NCBI GenBank assembly: GCA_051362555.1
Contig: CM120640.1
Coordinates: 17,732,001-17,796,000, forward strand
Length of the DNA: 64,000 bases
Reading direction: 5' to 3'
Origin: Lingula anatina
Lineage: Eukaryota; Animalia; Brachiopoda
A program made the position numbers and the translations under genes. Of the stretch, positions 3,466-43,500 are shown piece after piece. A model generated the notes under the pieces. That model was not told where the DNA came from. It was given only the letters and a program-made list of their open reading frames with translations, and ran no database searches. How positions within the stretch are numbered: position 1 is the stretch's first letter; every line of letters starts with the position of its first letter.

Positions 3466-6400
3466 TATGTCGCCTACTAAAAGACGGAAATGGAGTGGGT
3501 GCCATATTTGGTCCTATGGCCACCATCTCGGCCTCTCACGTACAGTCAATCTGTGATACTTTAGAAGTCCCCCACATAGAGACGCGTTGGGATTACAAAG
3601 AATTCAAGGATTATTACTCTGTGAATCTTCACCCCCATTATACCTCCATTGGGAAGTCACTGCTGGATTTGGTGACGCACTGGAAGTGGGGTGCCGTCAC
3701 CATTCTGTATGAGGACAACAATGGTGAGAGACGTTATGTACTTAATGCCAGAGAGAGAGAGAGAGAGAGAGAGAGAGCAGGATAAACAAAAAAATATTAA
3801 TGCTGTTCAGCGTTACTTGAATTGTGCAATAGTTGTGTTTGGTATGTATTGGTGCGTATGTTTGCAGTTGAACTATACACTTTGAAATACCATAAATAAA
3901 AAAAGAAAGAAAATAAACCAATAAAAGAAATGCATATGTTCACTTAATCAGCCCTCAAAATATACCAAAGATACAATTCATCAGAATTCTTCTTCCTTTT
4001 TATCAGGATTATTGAAATTGCAAGATTTGCTCCGAGTTCCTGGAAAGAAGAAATCTTTGCAGACGACCATTCGCAAACTCGAGGCATTTGAAGATGGCGA
4101 CTATAGACCTCTGCTCAAGGATCTTAAAAGTCAAAACCAGTTCCGATTTATAGTAGATTGTGACTATAAGAAGATACCCACTTTGTTGGCACAGGTAATT
4201 TTCCTCATTGCTCAGTTACTGTTTACAATAATAATATTAATCTGTTATAGTCGTAACTTTCATTCCTCTAGTATAAAATTACATATAAAGTAGGTGCAAT
4301 TAGAATAATTGAATATCTTAACCATGACTGATTATTATATTTCAGGCGATGTCTCTAAGCATGCTGTCACAGTATTATCATTTCCATTTTACAAGTTTGG
4401 TGAGTATCCCGGATATTTTTTTTTAATTGTGGCTAGATATGTAGCGCCATATAAATAATCGTCTTCAGGGCGCGTCGCACTGCAACATTTAGAATGAATG
4501 AATAAGGTGAAGATTAGCCCAAAGTCCCTTCAGCTTTTTACATACCTTGCTCCTTGCCTCATCAGAATTGCTCTCGACAGTTAAAAATATCACTTATGTA
4601 GCCATTGTTTGTCTTTTAATCTTTATAGCAGGCCCTTCTCCAAATATAGAAACAGATTATGTCCTTTGAAAGTGATGACTTACGGAGATAATAAAAAGAG
4701 ACATGACTTGACGTTTCTGACATGATTATATTGCAAGACATGCATTTGCCATTCACATGTTTTAAAATAAATGGAGTACAGATGAAATTGCAAAATAGAT
4801 TTGTGTCGTAAAACCGAAATGTTTTCATATTCTTGGATAGGCTGCATCAGTTGAGTGAAGACGTACAGCCCATGACTTAACGTCCAATTAATTCGTCCAT
4901 TCCCATTGTTTCTTTTCAAAGGCTACTTTATGCATATTTTTATGATCTATTTATCAGATGCATCTGTAGGGCTACAATCAACCAAACTTTTATTCAAAAA
5001 GAACCCCAAATTTATGAACCAGTCTTTTTCAAAATACAAATAAACATGCATTAATCGTCATTTGCCATCGTCATAAGCTAAGTAGATAGTGTATATTTTC
5101 AAAGCCCCGCTGGTAATGTATTGTTGATGCTATGCACCCTCTGCGCGCATGTCCTGTATTGCTTGTTGCACGTGGGCTGGCGCCTCGAGGTCCCCCTCCG
5201 GCAACAAGCCCACCATCAGTTTGACGTCCATGCCAAATACCTCTTCCATTATATTAAACACAACGTCATCTAGCTCTAACATTTGTTGCAAAAAGTTGTC
5301 CATCAACTCTGGGTCTTCTGTGACTATTGTTGTGAGCCCTGCTAATTCAGCGTCCTCAAGATCCGACTTCTTCACTGATGAGTCGCCATTGCTCTGGGGA
5401 CTGGAAGCTGGAGAGGTCCCGTTTTCCGTACCGTTGTCCCGCCTTAGGCTCGCCGATTCGAGAGACTGCGAATCCCCATCACCATCAGCCCCTAGCAGAC
5501 GCTCAACAATAAACTGTTTCAGTCTTTTTCGGATGAATTCGATCAATCGTCCTTCAAGTTTCTGGTTGGTAGTTTCCTGATTGTTGTGAACGGTACCATT
5601 TTCAGATCTTCCAAACTGGTTCCCATGATGGTTTCCAAAATGGTTGTGTATCCCATTAACTTGACCAGTATTAGTGCTGTTGTCGCCATCATTGTTGCTT
5701 GAGTATTGGTGACTGTCTCCACTTTGAGCGTGGAGAGAGTCGTAAATATGTCCTTTTTTCAAAAGCAAGATTCTAAGCAATGACTTAATGAGTTCTTTAT
5801 GGCCTGGGTTGGGATGGTGGTGGTGGTGATGGTGATACTTGTGATCATATTTCTGAGTGGTCGTCTCTGCTATTTCAGTGGTGGTGTCTGTTGAGGCAGA
5901 CGTGCTGACCGTAGAAAGAATTGTGCGAGCGGTAGGCAATGTATCTGTGAGGGTCCTCACTACTGTCGTTGCCGTGACAGTACTTGTTGTTCTTTCGAAA
6001 GGTTTCCTCTCATATTGCTCGCACAGGTGCCCACAGGGATCGCCGTAAGCGTCAGGAAGCATAAAAATTTCGTCATAAAGATCTGGTGGAATGATCAGAC
6101 GATCTATGGTATGAATTACGCCATTGGTTGTACAAATATCTGTCGTCTGCAGGGTCGCACCATTAACTTGGATGCTGCCGTTATCTTTAGAGAAAAAGAA
6201 GATATTGATTTATTTAAACATTTTAATAATATGTGGCTCATTATTTATTATCATGAGTTCACCGGCAATAAAGACATGAGGGCATATTTTTCTCCACATG
6301 GTTGATTGAGGACTTTATAAGACGGAATAACATTTATAATATTTAATTCATCATTATCATTAGTTCATTGGAAATATAGGCACACTTTACTCCATCACAA

Positions 6401-9400
6401 TGTAGATAGTGGACTAAGTATTTAAAATTGGCCAAACATAACATATATTTCGTTATTGCCATTGGCTGACAGAATCAATTGGACGCGTAACCAATTTGTT
6501 TGTTGTTCTGTTTGATCAAGAACAGAAACTTATGAAACAAGTTTTCAACTTACAAGCCTTCGTGATCCAAAGCTTGAGTCCGCACTTCGTCTTCACTGCC
6601 ATGTCGTAATGCAGGGACTTCTCATAAAAAGTCCCAATTATTTTATGACATTTGGCCAACTCTGTAGATAAAAAACATGAGATAGTTTAATGATTATAAA
6701 TATATCACTTCTGGTAACAAATTGACAAGTCACCCTGTTTTGAAATATTCTATTTTATGCAGGAGAAATAAAACCAAATGGTGAAGAAAAAGTGATAACA
6801 TGGCATTTTCCTTACAATCACTAAAGAGTTTTAAGTTAAATCATTGCGAATATGCTAGCAAGTTCATTTGCCTAAATAATTATTTTGCTTACTGAAGAAA
6901 AGGTAAAAATATATACGACTTATCTGAAATATAAAGGGCTCAGGTAAATATGCCCTAATTGATGTAAATATAAATAATTGGTAACTGTGAAAGATTTGTG
7001 TGCAACGCAAATTCAAATTTTTCTACATACCCCTTTTTGGTTAAAAATAGATCCATGCAGTGATATATAAAAAGGGTAAATCTAAAATAGGAAGAAAAAA
7101 CATAATATGAAATATTTACCTTTTAAGACATCTGAGTTTTCGCTGGCCATTAGAAAATTTTGAACTTCTGTTGGGAGATTGTTGAAAGCGTCATCTGTGG
7201 GGATTAAGAAAGTGCAACCCTTCCCATACCCGCTGTAGTATCCGTGGTCGTTGTAGTCGTCTGCGTGGTCTATGAAAAAAAAACCAATTATTTGTTGTCT
7301 TTCTCTGTTTGTTTGCATGGTAATTAATCAATTACTTCCTCCAAAGAGGTTATGATTTTGCCTTTGTTGGTTTTTGACACCATGCAGTGACAGTACTGCT
7401 TTGACGCATTTCGTATATTAATCATGTGGGAACGAGAAACATTCGAGAACTGTGGAATATTGTCAAATAGTGTCCATTTTTAGAGTTAAACAACACAACT
7501 ACAAAAATTCCCCTTACCTGTGTGGTCAAAGAGATCCACTCCATTAAATAGATCAAAGAAAATCTGGAAATTGTTATCGCTGGCAATACTTTGGGCTTCT
7601 GTCGTGTTGGAAAGGTCCAAGAATGGGAAACATAAGTAACAGTCGACCAAATGAACGACGCCATTTTTGGCCCACAGGTCTCTTTTCAATATCTTTGAAC
7701 CGGAGGCAATAGTAGCCTAAGAACAACAACGAAAAAAAAAAGAAAAGAAAAGAAATATTCATTTGATACGAAGAAAATGAGTTATTATCTGACATTTCAA
7801 TGATATAGTGCGTTCATTGCATCGATTGAAATATCAAGTACTTCACATATTTAAATACCCATAGAGATATCTTTAAGAGTACTAAAGTTTGACCATCTAT
7901 CCTGTAAAGCATTTCAGTACGTACATAACCATCGTTCGTTACGCGAATCCTGTCGTTATTCAGAGTCAGGAAAGAAGCTTCGTTCTTGAATTCCTTGCTC
8001 ATCACAAACCCGCTCACTATGTGGTTCCGCAGAAAGTCGATGGCGGTCTGGTTGCATTCTTCCAGGGCGGCCTGCAGGTCGTCTGACAGCTTGTCGAACG
8101 CATAGTCGGTTGGGGCAAACACGGTAAATGGACCTAATGGTTTTAATAAATTCGGGATTTTAAGTAGTTTGGCGTGTTTTTATTCATCATTGTATTTTAA
8201 AAAGTACAAAAACTTTAAACAACACGCCCGCGACATCTTCCATCTTCGTAAGCGAGTGGGAATTCTGATGAATCATATGGAATAAGAACAGAAATCCATG
8301 GCACTGTACGGAAGTACATACATTTATAGCTTATAGAAAACAAAACATTACCCGCTCCATACGTGCAGACCTCTTCCAATGTCGAATCATTGCTTGAACA
8401 TCTGAGAAGAATGGTGGCAAACTTTGAAGCTTTGATAAAAAGCAACTGCTTTATATTCGGTTTGAATTCCTTCCGGTAGTTTCTAGAGGATTTGTATCCT
8501 CTTCTCTTCGAACCGTAACCTCCACCTCCGTGTCGAAATTCGAATCCATCGTGCCCACCATTATACCCGCTGTCATCATCATATCCGCCATGAGACGAAC
8601 TATAGAAACTGTGGGAATCATGATGGCGAATATATCCACTCCTGCCATTCTGCCCATGGTGTCCTCCGCCATACCCATGAGCATTATGATCTACGTCGTA
8701 TCCATGGGAACTACCACCGTGTCCATGCGAGTCGTGACCACCGTTGTAACCACGGTAACCATATTCATCACCATGACTAGGATGATCACTGTAATGGCTG
8801 TCGTCGTACCCGCCATCATCCTCGTACCCATCATACCCACCAAAATCACCGTGTCCATAATTACCATGGTCATGACTGTGAACCCCAGCGTTTGCTTGGT
8901 GCAAGAAGTCTACTGCTTCAAGTGCAGCAATGATTCCAAGGAATAAGATATATCTAAAAACCATGGTGACAAGGGGCTCACGTACGTCCCCTCCTCGCCT
9001 ATATTTGTGTGAAAGCGCTATGTGAGTTTAGGTCATAACAAAGAACAGTGATGTTGAGATCGTGGCGTTTACACCAAGCTTTTTCACCTTCCATTGTCTG
9101 ATTTTACAGTAAAGTTTCGTATTCGTGTGTCGTTAACTCTTGGTGAGTCATTCTGCTCACTGTTTGTTTTCTGTTTTTGTCATAAAGGATGCACGTTATC
9201 TTCTACATATATGGGCATTCAATGTTTAAAGCTGTTTAATCGGAACTAACTATGCAGACATTGCAATGCTCACTATTTAATGACAGCCCTCAAGCATGCC
9301 GCTTGCGGGGTAAGTAGAACAAGGCGAGGTGTTTTCAACTGTTTCGGATATTTGGTGTCACAGATATTATTTCCTATTCAGGTAGTCTGTACTTGGATCC

Positions 9401-12400
9401 CTTCACAGACTGGCTAGTTTCCCCACATTGCTTCTTACCTCAAGTATTTATTATATGCTTCCTGCTTATCAACAAGATCTATCCTGTCTTTTTTTTTTAC
9501 ATAAGCATATTTTGAAGGCGAATATACAATCAATGCATCCAAAATATGCAATAAGCTCAAGTCGGTCGAATCTTTAAAAAATAGCATATGGGAATATTCA
9601 TGCCCATAAAAGATATTAGGCATTATATTATGAAATTGATCCAAGACCGCGGGGGAATTAGTTGTGGTATTATTTCCCTCCAAATCAAAATTCTTAATCA
9701 GTAAGCATGGTTTGGCAAAATAAAAAAAAAACTTTAAATTAATTTTTACACTCTGTATTTTTGCACGTAGGACTTGGACCTTCTGGACCTAGGAGACTAC
9801 AGGTATGGAGGTGCCAATCTGACGGGCTTTCGGCTGATAGACTGGGACGATCCCGAGGTGAAGATAGCCATGCTTGATCTGGCCAGTCCCAAAGCTCTCC
9901 CGGTAAGCACGCCTAACCTTTTCTCACTTTGTTACATAAAAAATAGCCTGCGGTTCAGTACACATTACCGCCTCGCTGTCTAGCCTTGTTGCCTGCAATA
10001 TATATATTAATGTATATTTGAATGCCACTAGGTAGGTTTTAAATAATTTGCAGGAAACTGGGAGGAAATTGGCACAAATAAAGAATGACTATCGTAAAAT
10101 AAGGCATAAAGTGCCTCCTTATTTTTCTCCATTTTTATGTTAAGTAATGTCCATATTTTCTAGATAAAGCACCACGAAGGATGCTAGTTCACCTAAAGAT
10201 TGTTAGTAAAGGATACGATATTGAAATGGCAACAGCAAGAACTTGTATAATACTAAACATTATAATTAAATTAACCAAGTTGGTGACATCCCAAAATGGC
10301 GCTTTAATTCTCAGGGAACACCTTTCGTCGGCGCTGTCCAAACAAAGACCAAGGTAACCGTAGGGCGCCAGAGAGCACCCTGTATACTGGCTTTACAATT
10401 AACCATTGTAGTTGGGATGTTAAATCTTTCTCTCTTTTTCTCTCAACTAAATAAGAGCATAAAGTGCATCATCTATAATTTATGTATCGACTTTGTGTCT
10501 CGTCTCGTGTTTTGGAAGTGGCATCTGTTTTTCATTTCGTGGCAGCTTGATATTTTAGGTCGTCCGAGAATTCATTTTCTTTCAAACGTTTATTTCCAAA
10601 TGAATAATGGATAGTTGTAGATCTGAAATCAAATTGATCCTCAGTAAAAAAAAAAATCAAAGTGTCGCTCTTTTCTTGTGTACGCTTATTCTTGGTCAAA
10701 CAACCCCTACACCAAAACTTTATTTGAAGCCAGCTTTTTTAAATCAAAGTCTGCTTTCCCTTCAAGCCAGACCTAGCATCGATTCAATCCATGTTTTCAG
10801 TTTTATCAACTATATGAATTCTGTCATCGATCCGAATCACCCCTTTGAAAGCGTTGTCTGGTCCCAAAAGCGTGACATTGACCCCGCTTCACGCGAGCAA
10901 GCACCACCCAAATTCAGCGAGCCGCCACATGTTTGACTTCATTTTGCTATCCCTTCTTCACTGACCACCTTCACTTCACGATTTTCGTACTCTTTTCTTA
11001 ACCAGGACGATAATGCAGAGATAAAGAGCAATGTTACGGTAGGTATGGCCTTCGGCAACATCGTTCACTATATGTAGTTCTCTATATGCTGTGACTGCCT
11101 GGGAATGCATTTCAAAGCTTGCAAACCGTACCATTCATCTACAGTGACACCTGCCTTTTTGGGGACTCTAGTATAGACACCTGTACAGAAACATAGTTGC
11201 GTTTGAACTTGGAACCTAGGTACACATAGAAACCAATATACGGTAATCATATTGGTTTCTATGAAAAAGGAAACAGTTTGGTGGTTTGACTACATGAACG
11301 GACGTTAGGTGCAGTGATTTTTTAATCTGCTTATTGCACGCCTTGGGCTTGGTTTTGACAGTCTCCCTGCATGTGTCGCCAGTGGCAGCATGTGGACGAC
11401 ATTTTCTCTCCATATTTCACTTGCTTTTGCCTCCCATATTTATTTCCTGATATTCTTATATGCTAGTGAATTTTGGAATAATAATAATTAAAGAAACATT
11501 AACTTGTTTCTTTTTAGAAAAATCATGTTCGGGATATATCTTTTGCAATCTTTACCGACTTGTTTTTATATATTAACATCTCACTTAGGAATAAGGCTTT
11601 TTTCCTTGTGATCATAATCCCTTTATAATCCCTTTACCCCTTTACCTCTGTGCGATAGAGCGAAATTAAAGGTAATTTAAGTAAGTCTAAGAACCCCATG
11701 TTCGCGTAGAACTATGAACACATCGTAGTAGATCTGCGAGCACTTTAAGGTGACATCCTGACAGCAAGTCTTGCAATAGACAATATTTCAGTATTACGCA
11801 TGACCATGTTTGACCTCTATGACGACCGCAAAAAAGAGGCGGTTCGTTTAAATGCATGCTCTGTCCCGAATTCAGGAATGCTGGGAAATTTACGTAGCGT
11901 AGCGAGTGAAAGGCAACCAAAAAAGTAGATAGCTCCTCAGAAATTCCGACCAGAATGCTGGTAGTGTGTGAATAGAAAGGATAAAAGAAATATAGATATC
12001 TATATATAGGGTTGACCCAAAAAGATAAATATGCCCGTTTCCATCACTGATGACTATTACAAATAACAGTGATGCTAGGCATTCGCCGTGTATCTCAAAA
12101 CTTACACTTACTTCGTTCTTGTTGCTGTTTTCATTCATTGTCTTATATTACAGTTTATAACGGTGGAGGAGAGCTTTAATTTTTGAGGGAGAAGCTTAAT
12201 TTCTTTGCAGTTTTTTTCTTTAATATATTGCTTGAATTATTTTTTCTCTTATTTTCCCCAATACTAGTTGTCTAGATTGAATATTTATTAAACGTGTATT
12301 TGAACGTATTTTTCTTATGTACAGGTACGTATCATACAGGTTTATATATTTAACAAGAGTTTTGCTTTAAAAGTTGCCTTATAACCTTTTCTGCCAAAAT

Positions 12401-15400
12401 GCTATCAATATAAATACCAATATTGCATCAAACAAGATTCACACCAAACGGCATATTCATGATCAGTTAAAAATATTGTAGAATTGACCTCTGGTTTTCA
12501 GGTACAGGCTGCCGTGATGGTAGACGCCGTGATGGTCTTCGCACGAGCAATTACAGACCTGTCGCGCTCACAGACCATCCAGACTCGCAGTTTGGGCTGC
12601 TCTAATCCCGGGCAGACATGGACTCAAGGCAGCAGCCTGTTCAATTTTCTTACAAGAGTGAGGGCTACTAAGCTTTTTAATTCTCCTAAATTTCCATGGC
12701 TGAGTACTTTGTAAACATACCGTTAAAAAGAGTTGCATTTGAGTATTTTACATGTTAGAAATGACATTGATAAACAGTCGGGTTGCCGATGAATCAGTGG
12801 TGGATTTTAGTTTTGAGATAACAAATACATATGAACTGATTGAAAGTCCATGTATTATTTGTAATTAATAAAAAATGCCCCGTTTCCAGGTAGGGTTGAC
12901 TGGTCTGACAGGCAGGATTAAATTTGATGGCGACGGAAAGAGAAGAGACTTCGACTTGGGGATTGTTAAAATGGGGAAAAGGACTCTAGAAAGGGTATGT
13001 ATGAAATTTCTGGCAACTTTCAAGCGTTCAATGATTCGTAATTCCTAAAAAAAAAAAAAAAAAAAGCAAAATCCAAGCTACACATGTAACTGAAGTTTAA
13101 AGATTAATTCAGAAATCAGAAACTTGACATTTGAGCAAACAGTACTAGCCTATTTCATTTTCGTTTGTAGCTTTTATATATTTTTTCCTTTAAGTGAGCT
13201 ACCGAAACCATGTGCGCTTAAACGCTGCCATTACTGTAATTTACCAGCATCGTAAGGGCTTTTTTAATGGGAGATCCTATAATTCTCGTTTAGAGTTATG
13301 CTGGTTTATTTGTCACACGCGTTCAATATGTCTAATGGCCTGAGCGGGTCGCTTTCAGTACAAAAATGAAATCTAAAGACTTGTTAAGTGATATATCGGT
13401 AATTTACTCTTTTCTTTGACCGCTCACATCTTGTCGAAGTGCGCAAACCTTTATCTCGCGTTCTATAACACTCTGGTCACAATGGTACCCACTTAACGTC
13501 TCCTCCATTTCGAGAAATGCGTGTGTCCATTAAAGAGATAAATTACAAACACAATAGGAATATAAGCTGATTGATGCTTGCTTGGTTAAATATAAGTAGC
13601 CATTATTTATTTTTATAAAGAAGACTAAAGATTTAATTCAGAAGTTACTTCATTTTACTGGATTATTACGGATTTATATTGAATTGAAGTAGACCAAATG
13701 TTCTGTCTTATTTTTGCGAAATCCTTGATGAAATTATTTTCTTATATCGTCTTATTTTCCTACAGATTGGTTTCTGGACTCTGGACGGAGGTGTGAATAT
13801 CACAGCAAACTTCACAGAGCTGAAGGATCAGCTTCATGACACTCTGCAAAACAAAACCCTTATTGTCACCACCATTCAGGTTAGTTTGATCTGTAAAAGA
13901 AAATAAACTAAGAGACATTGAAAGTAGTGGTTACGCCAAAAACGCAACCGCCACTCATGCTCCTAACACAAGGATACACCAAATACACCAGCGTATTGCA
14001 GGGATATATTATGTCTATCATGAGAAAAAATTAATGAATATTCGCATTATTAGTATTTCGTGCCATTTAAGAGAAAATACTAAAAAGATGCCACTTTTGT
14101 AGGAGCCACCGTATTTGATGCTTCGCAAGGCTCAGCCTGGTGTGGAACTGAAGGGCAATGCGCGTTTTTATGGTTACTGTGTCGACTTGCTGGCCGAGAT
14201 CTCCAAGCTGTTGAATTTTAACTTCACCATCAAACTGGTAGACGATGGAAACTACGGGGCACCTGTTGGACCAAATGGAGAATGGAATGGTATGGTGCGG
14301 GAACTAATAGACATGGTAGGTAGCAAATCCCTCGAATTGTGTTAGGTGTGACTTGACGTTAACACCATGCACAGTATTGTGTTGGTTGTGATTGGGGCTA
14401 ACTCACCAAATTAACTGACATTTACAGAAAACTAATATCAAACGAATATTCATTACATTGGTGCTAGAGCGGCTTTTTACTTAATTGTATTCACTCAGTG
14501 AGTCAGTGAGTGCACCAAATAATAAAAAACCTATTTTAATTTTTTTTAATTTACTTAAAAGTACATAAAAAACTAAATCACTAAAAATTATCAAATAATA
14601 CAATTTAAAAACAACATTTTTTGGTATTTATTTTCAGAAAGCAGATCTAACTGTGGCACCCATGACAATCACATATGTCCGTGAGCAAGTGATAGACTTC
14701 ACCAAGCCATTCATGAACCTTGGGATCAGCATCCTGTTCAAGAAACCAGAAGCTTCAACTCCAGACCTTTTCGCCTTCATGTCCCCTCTTTCTTTCGAAG
14801 TGTGGCTCTACATGTTGGCTGCCTATGTTGGAGTCAGTATAACTCTCTTTGTGTTGGCCAGGTTCAGCCCATATGAGTGGTACAACACGCACCCTTGCAA
14901 CCAGGAATCTGACATTGTAGAGAATCAGTTCAACATGCTCAACAGTCTCTGGTTTACCATCGGCTCTCTTATGCAGCAAGGTTAGTACAGCTGTCACAAT
15001 GTGTGCATTATCCACTGGTGGATCCAGGATTTTGATGAGGGTTGGATAGAAGAATGAAAGTTTTTGCTTCCCTTTTCTTGGCAAATATGAACAGTATATG
15101 AGAACAGGGATGAAAATTGCTTGTTTTGTCTCACATTGCTCATTGTACTGCTTTTTATTTATTTATTTATTATTTGGGGAGATGGGAGAGTTGGAGAAAT
15201 GGGTGCCAGCCCTCCACCCCCCCTACTCCCCCCAAAATCTGCCATTGATTGCTCTCAACATGATGAAATCAATCATTGGGAAGGACTTTGACAAATCCCA
15301 CTTGTTACAAATGTCACTGTTATTAAATTTAAAAAAAAAAATGAAATGATAATATTCTTCAAAACAATATTTTATTAGTAATAGTCTACACTGTACATGA

Positions 15401-17426
15401 AAATGTCCAAGTAAGCTGGCTTCAAAACAGAAGTACTTTTCGTAAGTAACTAAAAATATAAATCTTGAAAAGGTGAAATGCTGGAATGAGTGAGAAAAAA
15501 AATTAAAGTTATTACTGTTATGCTATGTATAACACTGTACATTATGTAAGCTGTCTAATTAGCATGGATTCCCTTTTTCAGGTTCTGATCTTGCCCCTAG
15601 AGCTCTTTCCACTCGTATGATAAGCGGCATCTGGTGGTTCTTCACTCTAATTATGATTTCCTCGTACACTGCTAACCTTGCCGCTTTCCTCACAGTGGAG
15701 AGGATGATCTCTCCCATTGAAAATGCAGATGACCTGGCAAAACAGACCGATATCAAATATGGCAGCCAATATGGCGGTTCAACCATGACTTTTTTCAAAG
15801 TAAGAACTAATATGTAATTTTTTTAAAGTGGACTTGGTTTTGGAAAAATTACAAAGATTTAGATACTTGGCAAGCATAGAAAACCAGACAAATGATAAGT
15901 TGTAAATCAGCAGGGTTTTTTCCCAGTAGTTATTTTTTTCAGTTTTCATTGAAGCTTCAGCACAAAAAAAAAAAAAAAATAATATTAATAATAATGTATC
16001 AAAAATCTAGAAAGTTCCAATTATTCCAAATATTCCTACCTGTTTGAATTTTTCTTTAAATTTTAATAACTTATTCATCAATTTTACACGGATATGCTCT
16101 TAAACCATACATATGTTGCTTTCAAGGATTTGTTTACCATTTTTTCATCCAATTTTTTTTTTTCAAATCTATTTTAATTATATTTAGACCTCCAAAATTC
16201 CAACATATGAGCGTATGTGGAACTTCATGTCCAGCACTGAGCCCAGTGTTTTTGTGAACAGTTCCAAAGAAGGAATTGACCGTGTGATGAAGGGGAAGTA
16301 TGCCTACCTCATGGAGTCCACAATGATTGAATACACTGTGCAGAGAAACTGCAAGCTGATGCAAGTGGGAGGCCTACTGGATTCCAAGGGTTATGGAATA
16401 GGAACACCAAGAGGTGGGCCTGCTATATAATAATAATAATAATAATAATTTATTTTTCTATGGCGCCTTCCATTAAAAATCTCAATGCGCCTTACAACAT
16501 TCACTTAAAAGAGCTAAATAACACAATACTAATATAAGAACACATTACAATTTTAAAGGACTAAGAACTAATTTAAAGAACCAATTATTCATATTCTAAA
16601 ATGATAAGAACCTAAAGTGACAACATTTAAAATTAATCATAAAATTACAGTACACCTTATTAAAAACTAAAATTAACTATATGATAGCTACTGATAGGCT
16701 ATTCTAAAAATATGAGTTTTCAAAAGCTTTTTAAAAGTATTATTATATAATGTATTTATCAGTGTGTAGAAAAAAGTATGTAATTGTGAATGCCCGTGTG
16801 TGTGCAATTGTGTGTGTGTGTTTGTATGTGTGCGTTCTTAGTGTTCCTATACCATGTATCTTGGTATAGAAACATAATAGGTAAATTCAAATTGGGTAAT
16901 TACCTCAAAACCTGGAGACAGATTATTGAATCATCATATGCTGTGTGGATAGACAAATTGTAGCTGCTTTAATTCCATGTTCTGGTTGTGACCCTTTAAA
17001 TTCACAAATATTTTTCAATTGTTCCCCAGGATCCCCTTATACAGAGATTTTGTCAGAGGCCATCTTGAAACTCCAAGAGCAACAGGTCCTGCAGGTCCTG
17101 TACACAAAATGGTGGAAGGAGAAAGAGGGTGGAGGACAGTGTGAGGAGGCACCATCAAACAAAGCCAGTGAACTGGGAGTTATACATGTGGGTGGAGTGT
17201 TTGTAGTACTGCTGGCAGGACTGGGACTGGCATGTCTGTTTGCCTTGGGAGAGTTCATCTACAAAGCAAGGCAAAATGCTGATGAAGACAGGGTAGGTGG
17301 AACTAAGTGGACATGTTCAAATGGTCTTTTCACCTAATGTTTCTCCCCTTTTAAATTATTTTGAAAGTACTTCAGCTTTATATCTGTAACTCTTAATGTA
17401 ACTATAAATATAAAAGCAAAAAAAAA

Positions 17427-21983: not shown

Positions 21984-23144
21984 TACCATTACATGATGGT
22001 CTGCATTCTAGGAGTATTCTCTAAGCATGTTATTAATTCATTTTGGACCATGTTTAACATAAGACAACCTCGACTTATTTCCTGCTTGCCTATATTTTGG
22101 ACATGCCAATGCGTGCTTAAATCACTCTATCCCGTGTGATATATCATTCATTAGTAACAATTTAAGAGCCTGTCAGTTTAACTCAAAAATTGCAAAAATA
22201 ATTTTCTCTTTTCAGAAACCCACCGAGGTACAGCTCAACATGCGCCTGCTAGCAGCCTTACCTTTGGTTCACATCCAGGAACTCTACGCCTATTCAGGCA
22301 TTTATTTTATGAGAATTGAATAAATATATTTGTCTGGGATTTTTTTATATTTTGATATGAAAAATTATGATAATGATAATGATAATAGATAGATAAGGAG
22401 AATGAAGATATAAATATAATAACTGTTTCAGCAGTTTCAAATTCAATCTACCGAATATAATCTGTAAATATTGCCCTTGGTATTGCTTTGACGATTTGCG
22501 TTGGTACATGAAAATATTGGAAATGGAAATGAAATGGTTTAAAAGCTTTGCAAACGTACCTTGTATTAAAAAAACGATTGTATTTGAGTACTTAAAAATC
22601 TAAAGTCTGCTGCGAGGCTGTAGGCGAATCAAAAGATTTCAAAACTATAAACGCACATTTATAAAGTGTAATTACAAACCTGCTTTTTGGAGTTCAATTT
22701 TGTTTCTAAATTTTGTTCCATGTCATGACATTTTCAATGTACTTTAGAACAAATTTGTCTATCCTCCGGAATGTCATTTCCTCACTTTTAATAATGTAAT
22801 TCATCGCTTTTTTATAGGACGTTTTTTTTTTTTTTTGCTACCGCCAATTTGACTATTTGAATACTTGCATATTTAAGTCTATTACAAATCTGAATAAAAT
22901 TATCAAGTGAAAAAGATTTTGCCGCTTTTTAGTAAATGACATCGGAATTGGGCCGTTTTATTTTGATGATATAGTATTGATCACATGCCTCCTAGTCCAT
23001 TTTTTTAAATTTATTTATTTGTATACATTTTGCTTGGTCTATTCGAAATAATATTCAAATCATGTACAATTCCTTCATGTATTTGCAAACCAATTTTGAA
23101 TTCCAAGTAGTCCTATGCAGTAAATGCTCTTACAATCTTTTATC

Positions 23145-23512
23145 GTCTCACTTATCACCCCTAAAATGTAATCGATTGGCCCCACCTGTCACCCCTCAAG
23201 ACGTAATGGACTCTTCCCACCTGTCACCCCTTATATTTAAATGGACTCGCCCCACCTGTCACCCCTATAAATTGAATGGACGCGCCCCACACCCCTCAAA
23301 AACAAAATGGACTCTTCCCACCTGTCACCCCTAAAAAACAAAGTGAACTCTTCCCACCTGTCACCCCTTAAAATTGAATTGACTTGCCCCACCTGTCACC
23401 CCTCAAAAACAAAATGGACCCTTCCCACCTGTCACCCCTTAATTTTGAATAGGCTCGACCCACCTACCTTCCCTCAAAAACAAATGGGGCTCACCCAACC
23501 TATCACGTTCCA
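23145..23512 (+). repeat. Minisatellite, ~35-bp period, ~11 units, core CCCACCTGTCACCCCT
   Basis: Seven exact cores plus four degenerate ones, separated by AT-rich variable spacers. Confidence 0.9.
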
Positions 23513-26500
23513 AATAGAGTACGTTATTCTTAAAATCCAGAATATTACTTTCACTTCTGTATCTTTAGGATCAAACAGAAAACGTATTCAAAAAGCGTAT
23601 TTATTCAGGTAAAAATGACTGTCATTCACAAATGGCAGAGTACAGTTACAAATGATAAAATAAAATATTTCTGTACAATGTACATCATCATAACGAATAA
23701 TAAAGTAGTGAATTATAATAAATAATTGTACTTTGAGATTATATTATGGCTTTTCATAGTATAGTATAGCTTTATTTTATGAAACTATGGCATAACATGA
23801 GAAAATTGAAGAGAAACTGACCGGTCAAGTGGAATCAAATTAAATTAAAGTTTTATCATATAATTATATTTATTTTATTATTTATATCGATCAATCCTTA
23901 TGGCATAATTTGATAATTAAAATAATTGATGTCTGATTTTAAGGAAAATGAAACACGATCATTGATTCAATCTTAGTACGCCGTGTCAGTATGCAGAAAA
24001 TTTAATATAAAACTAGCGATTTGAAAATCATGAACGATTGTCAACATGTAACTTTTGCATGTGCCAGTCCGTGTCCTGTTCCAAAATACGGAAGACTACG
24101 GCAGCTTCTTTCAGCCGTATGTGCATTTTGCAGTATCTTGGCAAAGGAAATGGCAGTGTTCTGAAATATGAAAATAACACACGTTATTGGCATAATTAAA
24201 TATCCCCATGTCATTTAAACTTAGCTTAGGTAAAATGATAATGGAAGAGGCATGCAGTCCAAGATCCCAAATTATCCGATATTTCACAAATTTCAATGGA
24301 TGTTGTACATCCATTTCTATTACACTACGAGAATGACATGGAAAAACGCGACAGTATTATTAGAAAGCGTTCTCAAAGTAAAGGTTTAAACGAATACGAA
24401 TTATTCCGTCAAGGAACAGAATTCATTACTGAACTGAATAAAGATTTTATAGAAGGCAAATGAAACAATGCGTAATTTAGTTTTCTCGTGAACAATTAAC
24501 AGATCTAATAATGAACAGCTCAACATTCATATAGTTCAGGAATACAACAATCGAAATAATACTAGCCAGAATTGAAAAAAAAATTAAACTCGTGACTAGA
24601 ATTAATTGATTGGAAAGCGAGTCATTCTACTTGGCAATTTTTTGATATTTGTTTAGTGGTCTTGCAGCTGATCTCAAATTTCATTGTGTGACATTTTTGT
24701 TCAAATTTGATAGCGTGAGCAATACTGAAAATTCAAAATGAATACAATATCATGTTAGCGTTATCCCCGCACGAACGCGCCTCGCTCAATATCGTCGTGC
24801 TGTTGTGCGCACAAAAAGGTAGCCAAAAATAATTAATTAGGTAAGATTCGTATGTGTTTTACTCTTCGATAGATGTAGCTAAAGTTTTACAGCATTTGTT
24901 TTCTTCACTTCTTATGATTTATCCATCCTAAAATCGGTAATTTTGAGCGATGACTATTTGAAAGTGCAAAACGTGCGAATGGGGCAGGCATAACCCTTGG
25001 CCATGGTCAGTATACAAACTTGTCCAAGTCATGGTAATTTTTAAGAATGATATGCGAACAAAACAGAAAACGTAACACAACATGAGTTCCCTTGTATTAA
25101 CTTAACACATTCTTTCAGAAAATGCTGAAAATTAACTTTGTTCTCCGGTATTCAGTGGTCAATCAACCCTAGGGAAAAAAGCCACACAGGATGTGAAAGA
25201 CCGACATCTAATCAGGCCTTGTCTTCTCAGTCAAATAATAGAATTCAGAAAGTGCCAATTACACAACCAACCTTAAATAAAACTCCAACCTGCAAATGTT
25301 TTTTACAAGTTTTGATAACCAAATTATCAAGCCAGTTTTGATAATAAAATTTCAAACGGATCTGCAACAAATTGTATATAATAAGGATTTTTCGAACATT
25401 TGAAATAAAAAAAGATAAAGATGAACGTCAGTCCTGCAAAGACCTCTTTAATGTAAAATGCCGAAATCAAACACTTTCAAACACTTTTTTCTTTTATGAA
25501 CATTTACCATATCTGCTTTGGAAAATTGGTAGAAAGCAAAAGCAACGCACAAATGGGCTCAATGCCGATGATGAAATTCTGGTTGCAACCGTTTACCTTA
25601 TCGAGTACGCAAAAAATTATCCTATGCAAAAGAAATTGCACGTCAATTTTGTGAAAAATCCACCCTACCCGGTTTCCTTTTCTTAAAACAAATATTTTGG
25701 ACCCCTCCCAGCAGTAATAATAAGGGTATTTCATTGATCAGATGCACAATGTCAAAACACCGAGAACCAAAGAAAGTTTAATCATAACTTGCGTCACAAT
25801 CGCATATTCACAGTTTTAGAAATAACTTTTCAATGCGTGTGGGCAATTCCGCAATAACTTGAGTACATTCTGTCTGTTTCATCATGCTGTAACTGTTGTA
25901 ATTTAGATTACCAAATTGTAGTTTTCCTCTTCAACCGAACAGGCAGTTTCTCTCCCGAAAGAAGTTTTCTCTTTGCATTTTACGTGATGGGGTTGCCACA
26001 ACTTTTTATCTGATTCGTCATTATGTCCAAGCTTCTATCAAGAACGTCCTTGCTACTATTTACAGTGAATTAATATGATACCAATAACATAAATTTTATT
26101 CCAAGGAACCAAAATGGAATGTTTTCAAGTTCAGGACAAACCTTTTAAATTTTAATGACCTTATACCAGACGTTTTAATTGTTATATTTAGAAGCGAATA
26201 AAAAATATCTTGAGCACTGAAACTGAGTGAATTTGTTCTTACCTGCATGCTCAAAAAAGGTTAGTTCGGTAGAGAAACATTTATATGTTATCAGTTTCTT
26301 TAATAAAAGTGGTATTTTTGTTTTAGAAAACAAATCGCTGTGGTTGTGATATAAAAGAGCCTAACAATTTGCAAATAAAGTTACCTACTAAAATCATTTA
26401 AGTCGGAAGCAGCGTTGGGTATTTTTAACAGCGGGAATTAGCCTCTAACATCTTTATTGGGAAACGAGTTCCCTCTGGAAAAATAACAGATGATAAATTA

Positions 26501-32900: not shown

Positions 32901-35900
32901 ATGAATCTGTTTTTACAATTTTTTGTGCTTTATAAAATATTTATGCAATACTATGCATCTGATGAGGTTTTACATTTGTAAGTGTATATAGAAAACCAAG
33001 TATTAAAATGGTTCCAATTACTAAATCAAGATTGCCTATGAAGTATATGGTGATCAGTAATTGCTATGTTACCAGCTTCAACTTGACATTTTGCCTGCTC
33101 ATTAATCAAACGTGATTTCACATTAATGGATAAAGGGAGAACAAAATACCGACTTTATGACAGCAACATTCAAAGAGAGAGAGAGAGAGAGGGAAGTATC
33201 AAAGTATCTTTCAAACCAGTGGTACAGTAATCAATATCATGCATCCAATAAAGATGAATTAATAAAAGTAGCTGTTATCTTTCTGCTAACTAGAGCAAAG
33301 GCCAGCATATCCTGGATACCTGATCAACACTGCTGAACACTAGCAACAATGCTTGACCACTCATCAAACATTTTGTTAACTGAGTCAGACAATTGTCAGC
33401 ATCTGAAGCACACTAGGGTTTGTGCATACAAGATACACTATATGTTGTTCTTTCAGAAATAATAAATCTATGTTGCGAAAAGAGAGTTTGGATTTCTGTC
33501 TGAAACAGACTTGTATTTCTGCATCAGAGAGTCAGTACTAGTACATGTTACTTTTTATAACTTGTATTTATAACTAGTTTTAAATGTAATTAGAGAAATA
33601 TATGGTAAGTGAGGGTTCTGACTTCTAAAAAAATTGTCACATGATCAAACTACCCAAGTTACATACATAAATGAAGGAAATATAGCTGGTGACCATTCCT
33701 GTTTCATCAAGTATTTCAATTCATCATCGCTCACTGAGAATCAAGCACATATTTGATAAAAACAGTGCTCAAATATTGTGAGCACAAATGCCTTTACAGA
33801 TCTAAGGAAATGATACGGAACTGGGGTATATCCTGCAGATATGTACATAAACTAGGCAGAAGAAAAGTGGGTAAATACTGCCACTTCATCAAATATTCGA
33901 TAACTTTGTGCTCGCACCTGACATCTTATCAAATAATGTTTAACAGGCCATAATGCTTCTTTTAAGAAAAAACGAGAGCAAATATAGCACAGCTTATCCT
34001 TATTTTATTTGTTGATATGTGTAAACACACTACTAATGGCATGTACAGAAATATCCCTTAGTGGTTAAAATCATTATCATGGGTTATAGAAAATGAAAAA
34101 TATATATTAAACTGTCTCCATGATTATTTCCCTACAATTATGAAGTAGGGCCAATTTAAATATATTTTATGTTTATGCCCCAATAAATCATTTCAGTGAG
34201 GTCAGTTTATAGGACTCAAGATTTTTTCAGTGATTGCATTTTTGATCACTCATAACGAAAGATGACTTTTTTGTACTTTCCCAACTACTGTGTGCTATTT
34301 AGCTGGGAATGCATCCGTTGTCTCTAAATGTAACATGTGTTATCATGCTGAGTTCTGATATACATCCTGAAAATGTTTATAATATAAAGGAGCTGATGTG
34401 TTTTAAAACCTACCTGTTTAATCAGTGTATATACGTACTCCACCTGTGACTTGACATTGGGTGCATCTTGAACGAAGGCGGCAATGGCATCCATGTGGTT
34501 CAGTGTGATCATGAGGATGTCGCGGGGACGTAGACACAAGGACACTTGGTATTTGAAGGCCATGGTCATCAGATCATACAGCTGCAAAACAAGATAATTT
34601 TCTAAATTGTGTAAAATAATATTTCATATATAGTACAAATTCATTCTCTTGACGAAGAATACAGCCAGCAAATGTAACTAAATCTAAATTAAGTTTTCAA
34701 TTTTACTTATTAAAATATCAAGATATCAATGAACTTGCTGCCAAACTAAGACCCCATTCCCAAAGATTTTAGATCGATCTATCCCTGTGGGGAGTCTAAC
34801 TAGATTACTGTCAGCTTAGCCGGCTTAAGCGTCTGTCCTGTCTACTAAAAGCTCTAAGGGGGTAATTAACTATGGTGTGCGCTCGGCTGACTGCAATTTA
34901 GCGTGAACCCCCAGGGAGTTAGGTCGATCTAAATCTAAATCTCTGGATCGATCTAAATCTCTGGGAATGCACTCTAAGGCTCATTGTGGCAAATAGCAGA
35001 TATATTTAAAACCTGGTCAAATTCTTCAGTATCTTTGGTAAATTATTTCTTTGTGACAGGGTAAAGGTATTATTGTGTGTGTGTATGCATGTGCGTGTGT
35101 GTGTGTGCCTGGGGGGGGGGACTTTTCAAGAAAAACAGGCAATTCACAGGACTGATTCTTTTTCAAATACCTCATAATGTTTAAAATCAATCCCAATGCA
35201 TTTTCTCCCTTTCAACAAAACCTATGTTTAAGGCTCATTCAATATTCTTTAAAGAAATTAAAAAAGCAATAAGCCACAAAATTGCTCTTACACTTGACTG
35301 AAAAACTAAAGCACTCAATGCCACGTCATACATATTTACAAATTCAGAACAATGATCAGTCAACAGTATGCATTAGGGTTTACTGCTAACACCTTGTAAA
35401 CAACTACATCAATATAGGTCACAGAATATTGAATCTCAATAATAAACTCAAAGAGAAGGCCAATCTCTGCATTGTTTTCGGTTAATCTGCCACGAGAGCT
35501 GTGGACTTCAGACACCTCTGATACGGATAAAGTGCATTGATTTTAGGAAATGAACCATGCTGTGAGAAATGATACTTGGTATAATTTCTATCATGCGATC
35601 AACACTTTCCATTTACCAAGGCACTAAAGTACTGCTCACTTTCAATAGCTAAATATACAGATTGCTTGACGTTCAATGTGTTTAAAAGTCCCCATGACTT
35701 TCAGTGTCCCAGAAGTACAACTGACCACATACACTAAATTGAAGTCCAATTTTTTCTTTACCCTTGGGTCTAATATATGTTCAGTACTATATATATTCTG
35801 ATCTTGCAACTGAAGTCTGAATAAATGCAATATTAAGGTATTAAAATGGTTAAGAAAATGTGCATGTGTCCTGCAAAAATATGTACTTGCCAAAATGGTC

Positions 35901-40582: not shown

Positions 40583-43500
40583 TCAATCTTCATCATCATC
40601 ATCTGAGGCAACTTGTGGCCCCCGCTTCATGGGGACCATGCTTCCCCCCACCAGGCCATTGGCTGTATTGAACAGATTGATAGGGGAACTGCCATCTGTG
40701 ATCAGAGTGGACTTCAAGCCCAGTGCCTTCAGGAGTTTCACCTGGAATTAGGAATGTGAGGGTTAAAATTATGTTATTAACAATTTCCCATGTCAGTTAA
40801 ATGTTGTTCCTCCCAGTGTTCCGTGACAACTTTACGAAAACTTTCAACCAAACATATACAAAAATACTTCAACACATTGAGAAGAACAACAATTTTATTA
40901 TATGCATAGTTGTAAATCATATAATCAGCATAATCAGAACAAACCATGATAGAACTAGCCATGAATTCTACTTGCCTGCATCTCGGGTCCAGAAGTTGCA
41001 ATGGCTCTGATGGTGTCTGCACCTATGGAATTCACCATGTCTTTAAACTTGCCAGTCTCAATGGCAGTCATCTCCTTGGACTTGGACAGCTCAAGCTCAT
41101 TCTGTTCACGAAGGAACCTGATCTCTGCTTCACGGGCACTGGTAAGGCGTTCAAGTTCTCCTTCCTGTAAGTAACAATAATTCATGTATATAAATAACTG
41201 TCTGTGCAAAATAATTTGGCACCTAGTAGCCCTTTCACACAATTGAGTCAAAGAGCAAACTGACCCAAAAGCCAAAATAATCAACACTATCTTAAGAAAT
41301 TTACACAAATTTATAATCATTACTAGCATTTTTAAAATTAAATATATGTTTAAAAAATGAAAATTTTACAACTGTTTTGCATGTCAATAAATACGTATCA
41401 TTAATATTATCAAAGCCCAGCTTCAATTTTGCTAACATTAGGCATGGGGCCTTAAATAAAATTGCAGACTGAAATCAGTGCAACTTTTTGTATTAACATC
41501 TAGTTCACTAAATACTAAGATATAAAACATAATCATACGTACTGCTTCAATTTTCATAGCCTGCGCCTTCAGTTTGGCTTGCTCCACATTAGCCTCTCCC
41601 TCTATTCTGGCAGACTCTGCCCTGGACTGTGCCTCTGCCTTGGCTTGCCCTGTGCTCTCTACGGCAGCACTCTGAGCCTGGAGTTCTAGAAGAGCGCGGC
41701 GAGATTTCTCAGCCTCAGCTTCATCACTTATCTTTTGACGCTCCAGGCGACCTTTTGCCTCCTGCTCTAGACGCTCTGCTTCATGTCTGAAAATGATCAA
41801 ATACAACATGAGACCTTTCTGTATGCTGTTTGTATAATATTAGTTAAACAATTGTGATAAATTTCTCTCGACTAAAACTAGCTGACCATTCATAAGAATA
41901 TCATACTGTATGTGATCATTATACAATGTAGTTTAAGAAGCACTAGGAGTAGGGCAGCAATACTGGTGGGTGTGGTTAAAATAAAAGCTTCCACAATCTT
42001 CACCCAATCAAAGCCTCTGTTACATATGACATAAGACTACAGTTTACCTGGCTGCTGCCTCCTGTGAGTTGGTGGTAATTTCAATGGCCAGTTGGACAGA
42101 CTTCTGCAAGGCATCTCTAGTTCTCTGGTCCACTGGTTCCACAGACTGAATATCTATGCTGGTGATGATCAAGTTGTTCTGTTTGAACACAAAGCGATCT
42201 CGCACTTTCTTGCTGTCGTCAATTCCAAACACAGACGCACGGATAATTTTGGCAGAGTTCTGAAATGGAAGTTTGTATTCTCAGGCACTGACATTTTAAT
42301 TTTAGTGAAAGTCTATGGTTGGGTGAAAAGACTGCCACTAATTTACAACAATTCACGCACCTATATTAAATTTTTTATCCAATGTCCATTTTTAAAAACC
42401 ACCAACTCAGAAATGAACAACTCAATCATACTTCTTGAGAAGTATGCCAAACACATTGAGAGACTTACAATGGAGAAAATAGTCCAATGAAGTTTACCTT
42501 ATGAAAGTCATCAAACTGAACCTGTGCCACAGCTCCTCTGACTCTAGATGCAATTGCTTTACAAGCATCTCCAACAAAGTCGGGAACACTGAACAACTTA
42601 GCTGCCTCAGTTTCAAAGTCTTTGTCTCCAGCCTTGGTTGAAATTTCGAAGTGCCTAAAACCAAAGACAAATTATAGTGCTCTACAAGTTCTGCTTTCAT
42701 TACAATGTTCATACAAATTTTTTAAAAATCTGAATTGTGCTAAACTGTGATGGTTTTAAACCACGAAAGACCCAACTAAGAAAAACAATTTCCATTACTG
42801 TCTACTATATTGTCAAGCAAGAGTTTTTAAACATAAAAAAACATACATATAAATATAGAATACATACCAATTGTAAGATAGCTGCAGAGAGAGCCTTGCG
42901 TGATCCGCCGTCTCCACCACTATAATGTCTGTGCAGAAGTCGGGACCCATGAGAAGGCACAGTGATTTGATAAGATTGGGTTTCTTGGGTTTACCACCAG
43001 ACAAACTGAGCTGAGTAAACTGTTCATCTGGACCCAGCATCACCAGATCTGGACCAAACACAACTCTGCAAAATTGTGAAAAATTTATTACAAATATATA
43101 ACAAGCAACTGTCCGTCAAGTGAAATTTGAAAACTGTTTGACAAGAAAGTCACAAGACTGACAACAATCCATGAGGCTTCATGGAGATGATTTGTCTGCT
43201 TCAAAATTAAGAAGTCACAAATATAAAATATTATTTGTTGGCAACTCTGTATACATTTATCAATTAAGCATCTGAATGACTGTAGAAATCTCCAAGTCAA
43301 AAATCTTTAAATCAGTTAATCCTCTAAAAAATTCTTGGCATAACAAATACCTTGCTTTTTTCTCCTTGTAATCATATATCTGCACTGCTGCATTGTGTGG
43401 CACTCTGAAGGTGACTACTCTGGTTTTGTCACGTGTTTGGGTGCTTGCCCCTCTGCCGCGCTCTCCTCTATCAGCCAGTGGATCTTTCCCTTGGGCCAGA

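What the first reader, a model, noticed from the sequence alone, without database searches (positions are those of the whole stretch)
5130..8964. Secreted His/Gly/Tyr-rich double-fasciclin protein with biomaterial-like architecture
Seen in sequence: signal peptide; ~140 aa of His/Gly/Tyr/Asp low complexity with internal repeats (GYNGGHD twice, GGYDD twice); a basic linker [14 protein letters not shown]; two FAS1 domains, the second preceded by a further insert [16 protein letters not shown]; a Thr-rich stalk; a poly-His run ([11 protein letters not shown]); an Asn/Gly/His region; and an acidic C-terminal region. Established: FAS1 is a cell/matrix adhesion module (TGFBI, periostin). His/Gly-rich and Gly/Tyr-rich tracts characterise metal-coordinated or DOPA-crosslinked invertebrate materials (Nereis jaw protein, squid beak His-rich proteins, mussel byssus, shematrins). 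Inference: this may be an adhesion-module-anchored, Zn/Cu-binding or coacervating matrix protein. I do not recognise this domain combination from a named family.
Basis: partly seen in the sequence, partly recalled or inferred. Interest (0 to 1): 0.8.

Follow-up and report, generated by a model that had tools for sequence, protein, structure and literature searches.

The report
Brachiopod fasciclin with histidine-glycine tails
This spliced gene of a lamp shell (Lingula), tucked backwards inside an intron of a glutamate-receptor gene, encodes a predicted secreted protein that joins two fasciclin adhesion domains to histidine/glycine/tyrosine-rich tails and likely helps bind or cross-link extracellular matrix, though metal binding and tissue are untested.

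Summary
Six GT-AG exons on the minus strand give a 777-aa open frame with every motif named; 4 of 5 junctions appear in RNA reads. The full-length match is an uncharacterised Lingula anatina protein, XP_013416774. Additions: the gene sits antisense in a 5,371-nt intron of an ionotropic glutamate receptor gene; the His/Tyr insert lies inside the second FAS1 domain, not before it; and a Lingula paralogue (XP_023930659) shares the Gly/Tyr/His/Asp N-terminal tract, the insert, eight cysteines and the post-FAS1 motif. Only these 2 of 348 retrieved proteins have the design, in lists crowded by bacterial FAS1 repeats. The tract (G28, H17) matches a Zn-binding worm jaw protein in composition. Against a bulk material: neither protein is in two Lingula shell proteomes, expression is at most about 2 RPKM in the runs laid (tissue unknown), there are no GHGxY motifs, and the tract is acidic. 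Best reading: a matricellular FAS1 protein with likely metal- or pH-switched sticker tails. New variant of a known design; function untested.

The parts
8352..8964 (-). Exon 1 (aa 1-204): predicted signal peptide, His/Gly/Asp/Tyr tract, basic linker, start of FAS1-1
   Evidence: junction to exon 2 in reads
8914..8964 (-). Predicted signal peptide (about aa 1-17; alternative cleavage after aa 26)
   Evidence: hydropathy; inferred, no SignalP run
8515..8886 (-). His/Gly/Asp/Tyr low-complexity tract, aa 27-150 (G28 H17 D14 Y12 S11; computed pI about 5.5; net +4.8 at pH 5, -15.9 at pH 8)
8470..8511 (-). Basic linker aa 152-165 with KRR and RxxR, a possible convertase site; KRR not kept at the same place in the paralogue
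   Evidence: cleavage inferred
7925..8133 (-). Exon 2, core of FAS1-1 (H1 motif FTVFAPT, NH in place of YH)
7518..7716 (-). Exon 3, H2 motif of FAS1-1 with CxxC, and first helices of FAS1-2
   Evidence: junction to exon 4
7120..7269 (-). Exon 4: His/Asp/Tyr/Gly insert (aa 341-356, to 7223) inside FAS1-2, then H1 motif
   Evidence: junctions
6554..6661 (-). Exon 5, FAS1-2 middle (CH in place of YH; Cys395, Cys417 shared with paralogue)
   Evidence: junctions
5130..6184 (-). Exon 6: end of FAS1-2 (to 6078), Cys motif PDxYGxPCGHxC (6077-6003), Thr stalk (6002-5850), poly-His (5843-5811), Asn/Gly/His region (5729-5568), acidic end (5363-5133), stop
   Evidence: junction
4400..9770 (+). 5,371-nt intron of the host ionotropic glutamate receptor gene that contains the whole FAS1 gene antisense
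   Evidence: joint 4398/9770 GT..AG in reads of 3 runs; flanking exons in frame without stops
3471..4399 (+). Host gene exons 3471-3723, 4007-4194, 4346-4399 (ANF_receptor amino-terminal domain); continues at 9771 and has Lig_chan exons at 14638-14985 and 17023-17289

Best explanation
This is a spliced six-exon Lingula gene, nested antisense in a glutamate-receptor intron, whose product is predicted to be secreted and likely acts as a minor matrix organiser: the two FAS1 domains would dock on extracellular matrix or cuticle and the His/Gly/Tyr/Asp tracts would act as metal- or pH-switched stickers. Shown: gene structure, splicing, FAS1 identity, composition, paralogue, nesting. Inferred: secretion; disulphide stabilisation of the FAS1 pair by eight shared cysteines; docking through FAS1 as in periostin, which binds collagen and fibronectin and promotes cross-linking; near-neutral tract charge at about pH 5.5 turning to about -16 at seawater pH, leaving deprotonated His plus Asp free to bind Zn/Cu/Ca; possible Tyr oxidation by the tyrosinase, laccase or peroxidasin listed in Lingula shell. 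The Thr stalk, poly-His and acidic helices are an add-on of this paralogue only.
For: Open six-exon frame and 4 of 5 junctions; 22 of 37 variant codons synonymous. FAS1 pair aligns continuously with periostin and TGFBI (E 2e-26, 7e-24) and by predicted structure with a molluscan two-FAS1 cluster (TM 0.74). The paralogue, 42% identical over the FAS1 pair, keeps a Gly/Tyr/His/Asp tract (G44 Y14 H11 D11, computed pI 5.7) and a His/Tyr/Gly insert at the same loop although their sequences have diverged: composition, not sequence, is conserved. No substitution in aa 1-167 against the RefSeq protein (one indel) versus 16 of 18 substitutions after aa 487 (weak, no DNA comparison). Composition close to Nai11527. 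Periostin's matrix role and FAS1 plus low-complexity designs from PMC6032426 passages. Oxidases in the Lingula shell list.
Against: No binding, localisation or tissue data. Neither paralogue is in the shell-matrix lists (PF02469 absent from the 2015 domain table; accessions absent from the 2026 list). The N-terminal tract has at most 6 His in 20 residues, under the 8-in-20 cut used for Nereis jaw proteins; only the poly-His patch passes, and the paralogue has no such window. The tract may be cut off at KRR, which would undo anchoring. No RGD; YH is replaced by NH and CH.
Confidence: 0.5

Rival explanations
1. It is a bulk load-bearing or adhesive material protein of a non-shell structure (chaetae, pedicle cuticle or pedicle glue), hardened by Zn-His coordination or Tyr cross-linking.
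For: Composition near Nai11527; paralogue has about 25 GY-anchored 8-residue repeats; fasciclins occur in barnacle adhesive proteomes; His tracts at both ends recall preCol His-rich termini. The runs laid have unknown tissue, so a narrow secreting tissue could have been missed.
Against: At most 2.2 RPKM (upper bound, includes host-gene reads) in 3 runs and at most 0.15 in 3 more versus FPKM 9,672 for Nai11527; no GHGxY or GAGFA; tract is 16% of the chain; absent from shell proteomes.
Confidence: 0.2
2. It is an ordinary secreted TGFBI-like adhesion protein whose low-complexity parts are spacers or a propeptide removed at KRR, with no metal or material role.
For: KRR and RxxR sit just before FAS1-1; low expression similar to the host receptor exons; the C-terminal region has no family or confident fold and varies most; periostin-like core.
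Against: Two paralogues independently keep His/Tyr/Gly/Asp chemistry both at the N-terminus and in a loop inside FAS1-2; the paralogue lacks KRR at this site.
Confidence: 0.17
3. It is an innate-immune protein: the His-rich tracts would sequester Zn/Cu or be released as His/Gly-rich antimicrobial peptides, the FAS1 pair acting as opsonin-like anchor.
For: Sea urchin Sp185/333 proteins pair an N-terminal Gly-rich region with poly-His and acidic patches; dibasic sites flank two basic amphipathic helices in the tail.
Against: No sequence link to those proteins was found or tested; only two paralogues seen, no hypervariable family; tract is net acidic.
Confidence: 0.08
4. It is a mineral-directing protein for apatite shell or for silica, in the manner of glassin's His/Asp and His/Thr domains.
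For: Glassin has His/Asp-rich and His/Thr-rich domains that drive silicification, and Lingula has a silicon transporter; acidic C-terminal region.
Against: Absent from both adult shell proteomes; siliceous larval shells are reported mostly for discinoids; resemblance is compositional only.
Confidence: 0.05

Closest known systems
Lingula anatina XP_013416774.1 (LOC106178210), uncharacterised
   Same: Same gene: 776 of 777 residues aligned, 18 substitutions, same exon product
   Different: Another allele, population or sibling species; no function published in the library searched
Lingula anatina XP_023930659.1 (LOC106168644), uncharacterised paralogue
   Same: Hydrophobic leader, Gly/Tyr/His/Asp tract, two FAS1 at 42% identity, His/Tyr/Gly insert in FAS1-2, eight shared Cys, PDxYGxPCGHxC motif
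   Different: Regular 8-residue repeats, less His; no Thr stalk, poly-His or acidic tail; model carries a 90-residue exact internal duplication
Periostin and TGFBI (betaig-h3)
   Same: Secreted tandem FAS1 matrix proteins; best solved-structure matches
   Different: They have four FAS1 domains and an N-terminal Cys-rich (EMI) domain (recalled); no His/Gly tract; TGFBI has RGD, absent here
Volvox Algal-CAM and plant fasciclin-like arabinogalactan proteins
   Same: One or two FAS1 domains joined to low-complexity matrix tracts
   Different: Their tracts are Pro/Ala/Ser/Thr-rich and glycosylated, often GPI-anchored; here His/Gly/Asp/Tyr, and no hydrophobic C-terminal anchor
Nereid jaw proteins Nvjp-1 and Nai11527; squid beak HBPs
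   Same: Signal peptide and Gly/His-rich composition (Nai11527 G29 H16)
   Different: No folded FAS1 domain reported in the passages read; very high expression; HBPs use GHGxY repeats with His as the only charged residue, whereas this tract is Asp-rich with no GHGxY

Membership tests
FAS1 domain proteins (PF02469) | Pfam Fasciclin above curated cut-off | tested here: met
   149.4 bits, two stretches, cut-off 22; exon-wise hits
FAS1 domain proteins (PF02469) | H1 and H2 motifs in each domain | tested here: met
   Both found twice; definition from PMC6032426 passage
FAS1 domain proteins (PF02469) | Central YH motif | tested here: inconclusive
   His kept, Tyr replaced: NH in domain 1, CH in domain 2
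Periostin/TGFBI | Four tandem FAS1 domains | tested here: not met
   Two stretches only
Periostin/TGFBI | N-terminal Cys-rich EMI domain (recalled) | tested here: not met
   No Cys before aa 189; no such Pfam hit
Periostin/TGFBI | Orthology by tree | not tested
   Animal FAS1 sequences were too few among those fetched to build a tree
Squid beak His-rich proteins (HBP) | GHGxY and GAGFA pentapeptide repeats | tested here: not met
   0 of either in both paralogues; definition
Squid beak His-rich proteins (HBP) | pH-triggered self-coacervation | not testable with these tools
   Computed charge crosses zero near pH 5.5; needs experiment
Nereid His-rich jaw proteins | Gly/His-dominated composition | tested here: met
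   Tract G28 H17 versus G29 H16; true of 124 of 777 residues only
Nereid His-rich jaw proteins | His-rich region of at least 8 His in 20 residues | tested here: inconclusive
   Met only around the poly-His (windows starting aa 531-544); N-terminal tract maximum 6; paralogue none
Nereid His-rich jaw proteins | Very high expression in the secreting tissue and Zn binding | tested here: inconclusive
   At most 2.2 RPKM in runs of unknown tissue; Zn binding not testable
Lingula shell matrix proteins | Detected in shell proteome | tested here: not met
   PF02469 absent from the 2015 supplement; both accessions absent from the 2026 supplement; non-detection is not absence
Fasciclin-like arabinogalactan proteins | Pro/Ala/Ser/Thr-rich glycosylated region with FAS1 | tested here: inconclusive
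   A 51-residue stalk with 49% S+T exists; glycosylation untested; plant-type hydroxyproline glycans not expected in an animal (own knowledge)

The most novel reading that the evidence does not exclude
The two Lingula paralogues form an undescribed family of self-anchoring sclerotisation or glue proteins, in which a disulphide-locked FAS1 pair tethers Zn/Cu-His and Tyr-cross-linking tracts to the chitinous chaetae or pedicle of lingulid brachiopods: a metal-His material built on a cell-adhesion module in a phylum where none is described in the papers searched.
Probability: 0.2. Interest if true: 0.72.

Novelty: new variant of a known kind. Interest (0 to 1): 0.42.

Why it matters
The molecular make-up of brachiopod chaetae, pedicle cuticle and pedicle glue is little covered in the papers found, and both Lingula proteomes cover only the shell. 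A two-member family that couples FAS1 to His/Gly/Tyr/Asp tracts gives named, testable candidates, and a natural design for a matrix-targeted, metal- or pH-responsive protein. If the tracts do nothing of the sort, it is one more lineage-specific secreted fasciclin, of modest interest.

Tried and rejected
No whole genome is held, so paralogue number and the paralogue's exon structure could not be checked. Single-sequence AlphaFold models of the whole protein (pLDDT 33) and of aa 541-777 (pLDDT 41) are uninformative, so no fold search was run. The Dynamitin hit (E 0.043, far below cut-off) was rejected as helical bias. Homologue searches were dominated by bacterial multi-FAS1 proteins: 120 of 290, 120 of 1,606 and 150 of 13,596 hits were listed; two Gly-rich hits (P0258, P0329) have no His tract and two loose motif hits (P0294, P0310) lack the design; P0340 was not read. 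Atlas feature scores stayed under 0.9. The difference in synonymous share between FAS1 (12 of 17) and tail (10 of 20) is not significant (p 0.32). Opposite-strand ORFs 8428-8946 and 5128-5580 were taken as shadows of the coding exons; not tested further. Artefact (unspliced or intronic signal of the host gene) rejected: CT..AC joints and depth confined to exon bins. Earlier findings of the scan: none.
Full report
Observation. Reading the window and splicing by script gives six minus-strand exons, 8964-8352, 8133-7925, 7716-7518, 7269-7120, 6661-6554 and 6184-5130, all GT..AG, 2,334 nt, 777 aa. Pfam Fasciclin hits exons 2, 3, 4 and 6. The signal peptide is inferred from hydropathy: the most hydrophobic 19-residue windows lie at aa 1-24 and the C-terminus is not hydrophobic, so a soluble secreted protein is predicted. 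One repeated 7-mer is unlikely by chance (1.0% of 20,000 shuffles), a repeated 5-mer is not (37%).

The gene is transcribed and spliced. Nine same-label RNA runs were listed and eight laid. Junctions E1/E2, E3/E4 and E4/E5 appear and E5/E6; E2/E3 was not listed. Depth is low and confined to exon bins. Reads of X7-X9 are mostly 95-99% alike, so they come from another population or close species. Counting all laid reads against 2.6 kb gives upper bounds of 2.2, 1.7 and 1.2 RPKM for X7-X9 and 0.10-0.15 for X1-X3; X4 and X5 gave none and are no test; tissues are unknown. Of 37 variant codons listed, 22 are synonymous and none is a stop, well above the roughly one in four expected without selection (own knowledge).

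The gene lies antisense inside an intron of a plus-strand ionotropic glutamate receptor gene: ANF_receptor and Lig_chan exons flank it, reads skip 5,371 nt from 4398 to 9770 with GT..AG in three runs, and the flanking exons join in frame without stops. Nesting is common in animals (own knowledge) and I infer no functional link. No second FAS1 gene lies in the window.

Identity. Exon 6 found a 780-aa Lingula anatina protein, XP_013416774.1, named uncharacterised; 776 of 777 residues align with 18 substitutions, none in aa 1-167 (one indel) and 16 after aa 487. The window is therefore a lingulid brachiopod. The FAS1 pair aligns continuously with periostin and TGFBI; in that alignment the His/Asp/Tyr insert faces a 13-residue gap inside the second domain, so it is a loop insertion, not a linker. 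The Atlas model of aa 165-490 matches a molluscan two-FAS1 cluster at TM 0.74.

A paralogue shares the design. XP_023930659.1 (753 aa) is 42% identical over the FAS1 pair. It has a hydrophobic leader, several dibasic sites, a 250-residue tract of G44 Y14 H11 D11 in 8-residue repeats, a His/Tyr/Gly insert at the same loop, eight shared cysteines and the PDxYGxPCGHxC motif. It lacks the Thr stalk, poly-His and acidic tail. The tracts barely align, yet their chemistry and computed pI (5.55 and 5.73) agree. This is the best evidence that the His/Tyr/Gly/Asp chemistry is selected. Of 348 proteins held, only these two have a His/Gly/Tyr tract with the Cys motifs; the best single alignment to the FAS1 pair drops from 199 bits (paralogue) to 123. 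The lists are crowded by bacterial multi-FAS1 proteins (150 shown of 449 at E 1e-30), so distant animal orthologues may be hidden, and restriction to Lingula is not shown.

Material hypothesis. For: the tract (G28 H17) is compositionally almost equal to the Zn-binding jaw protein Nai11527 (G29 H16; PMC13120676, passages); computed charge goes from +4.8 at pH 5 to -15.9 at pH 8; fasciclins occur in barnacle adhesive proteomes (PMC8371367, passages); tyrosinase, laccase and peroxidasin are in the Lingula shell list. Against: Nai11527 is at FPKM 9,672 and this gene at most about 2 in the runs laid; GHGxY and GAGFA motifs of squid HBPs (PMC9999432, passages) are absent and the tract is Asp-rich; the N-terminal tract has at most 6 His in 20; a KRR/RxxR site could detach it, though the paralogue lacks KRR there. 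Neither protein is in the two shell proteomes: no fasciclin term or PF02469 in PMC4595640 (main-text passages and supplement search), and neither accession in PMC13425148 (passages, section 8, supplement search and part 1), whose list uses the same RefSeq ids. Figures were not visible. Chaetae, pedicle and glue were not sampled in those studies as far as the passages show.

Mechanism. I commit (0.5) to a minor matrix organiser. Shown: gene, splicing, two FAS1 domains, tracts, paralogue. Inferred: secretion; docking of a disulphide-stabilised FAS1 pair on matrix, as periostin binds collagen and fibronectin and promotes cross-linking (PMC6032426, passages); His/Asp metal binding and Tyr stacking or oxidation by the tracts after release into seawater pH. 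Rivals: bulk material of chaetae or pedicle (0.2), ordinary fasciclin with inert or cleaved spacers (0.17), immune protein like Sp185/333 (0.08; PMC3342357, passages), mineral director like glassin (0.05; PMC10772126, passages). The C-terminal region has three helical stretches in a low-confidence model and no family.

Known and novel. It is a FAS1 protein, but not a periostin/TGFBI member by architecture, not an HBP by motif, and not a detected shell matrix protein. FAS1 plus low-complexity tract is a known design in Algal-CAM and plant FLAs. I found no description of a His/Gly/Tyr version: searches gave 0 papers for Lingula + shell matrix + fasciclin, 4 unrelated for fasciclin + histidine-rich + biomineralization, 3 unrelated for fasciclin + brachiopod, 0 for the four accessions, and nothing pertinent among the listings (titles and abstract starts only); subscription journals are largely outside the library. 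Earlier scan notes held nothing.

Verdict. Real, expressed, uncharacterised two-member Lingula family; new variant of a known kind; the biomaterial role is plausible but rests on composition and is weakened by low expression and absence from shell proteomes. Interest 0.42.

Noticed in passing
window 3471-17337 (+): Host ionotropic glutamate receptor gene (ANF_receptor and Lig_chan exons; kainate-like by recall), with the FAS1 gene antisense in its 5,371-nt intron; both are read at similar low depth.
   Followed up: yes
P0004 aa about 500-584 and 590-674: The paralogue model has an exact 90-residue internal duplication that repeats the His insert and half of FAS1-2; may be an assembly or annotation artefact or a tandem exon duplication.
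   Followed up: no
window 40955-45664 (-): Major vault protein gene exons (Pfam Vault hit at 45326-45664).
   Followed up: partly
window 55551-55700 (+): WD40-repeat exon; TAF5-like by recall, not tested.
   Followed up: partly
window 34324-34623 (-): ORF that looks like an exon of an OSCP1-like gene (recalled, not tested).
   Followed up: no
window 6123 (exon 6, aa 447): Reads of run X9 show a change of the Asn in the H2 motif of FAS1-2 to Lys; the paralogue has Asp there, so this position seems relaxed.
   Followed up: no
window 22996-23612 (+): Repetitive ORF-like stretch with recurring HLSPLK units, probably a tandem repeat in DNA.
   Followed up: no
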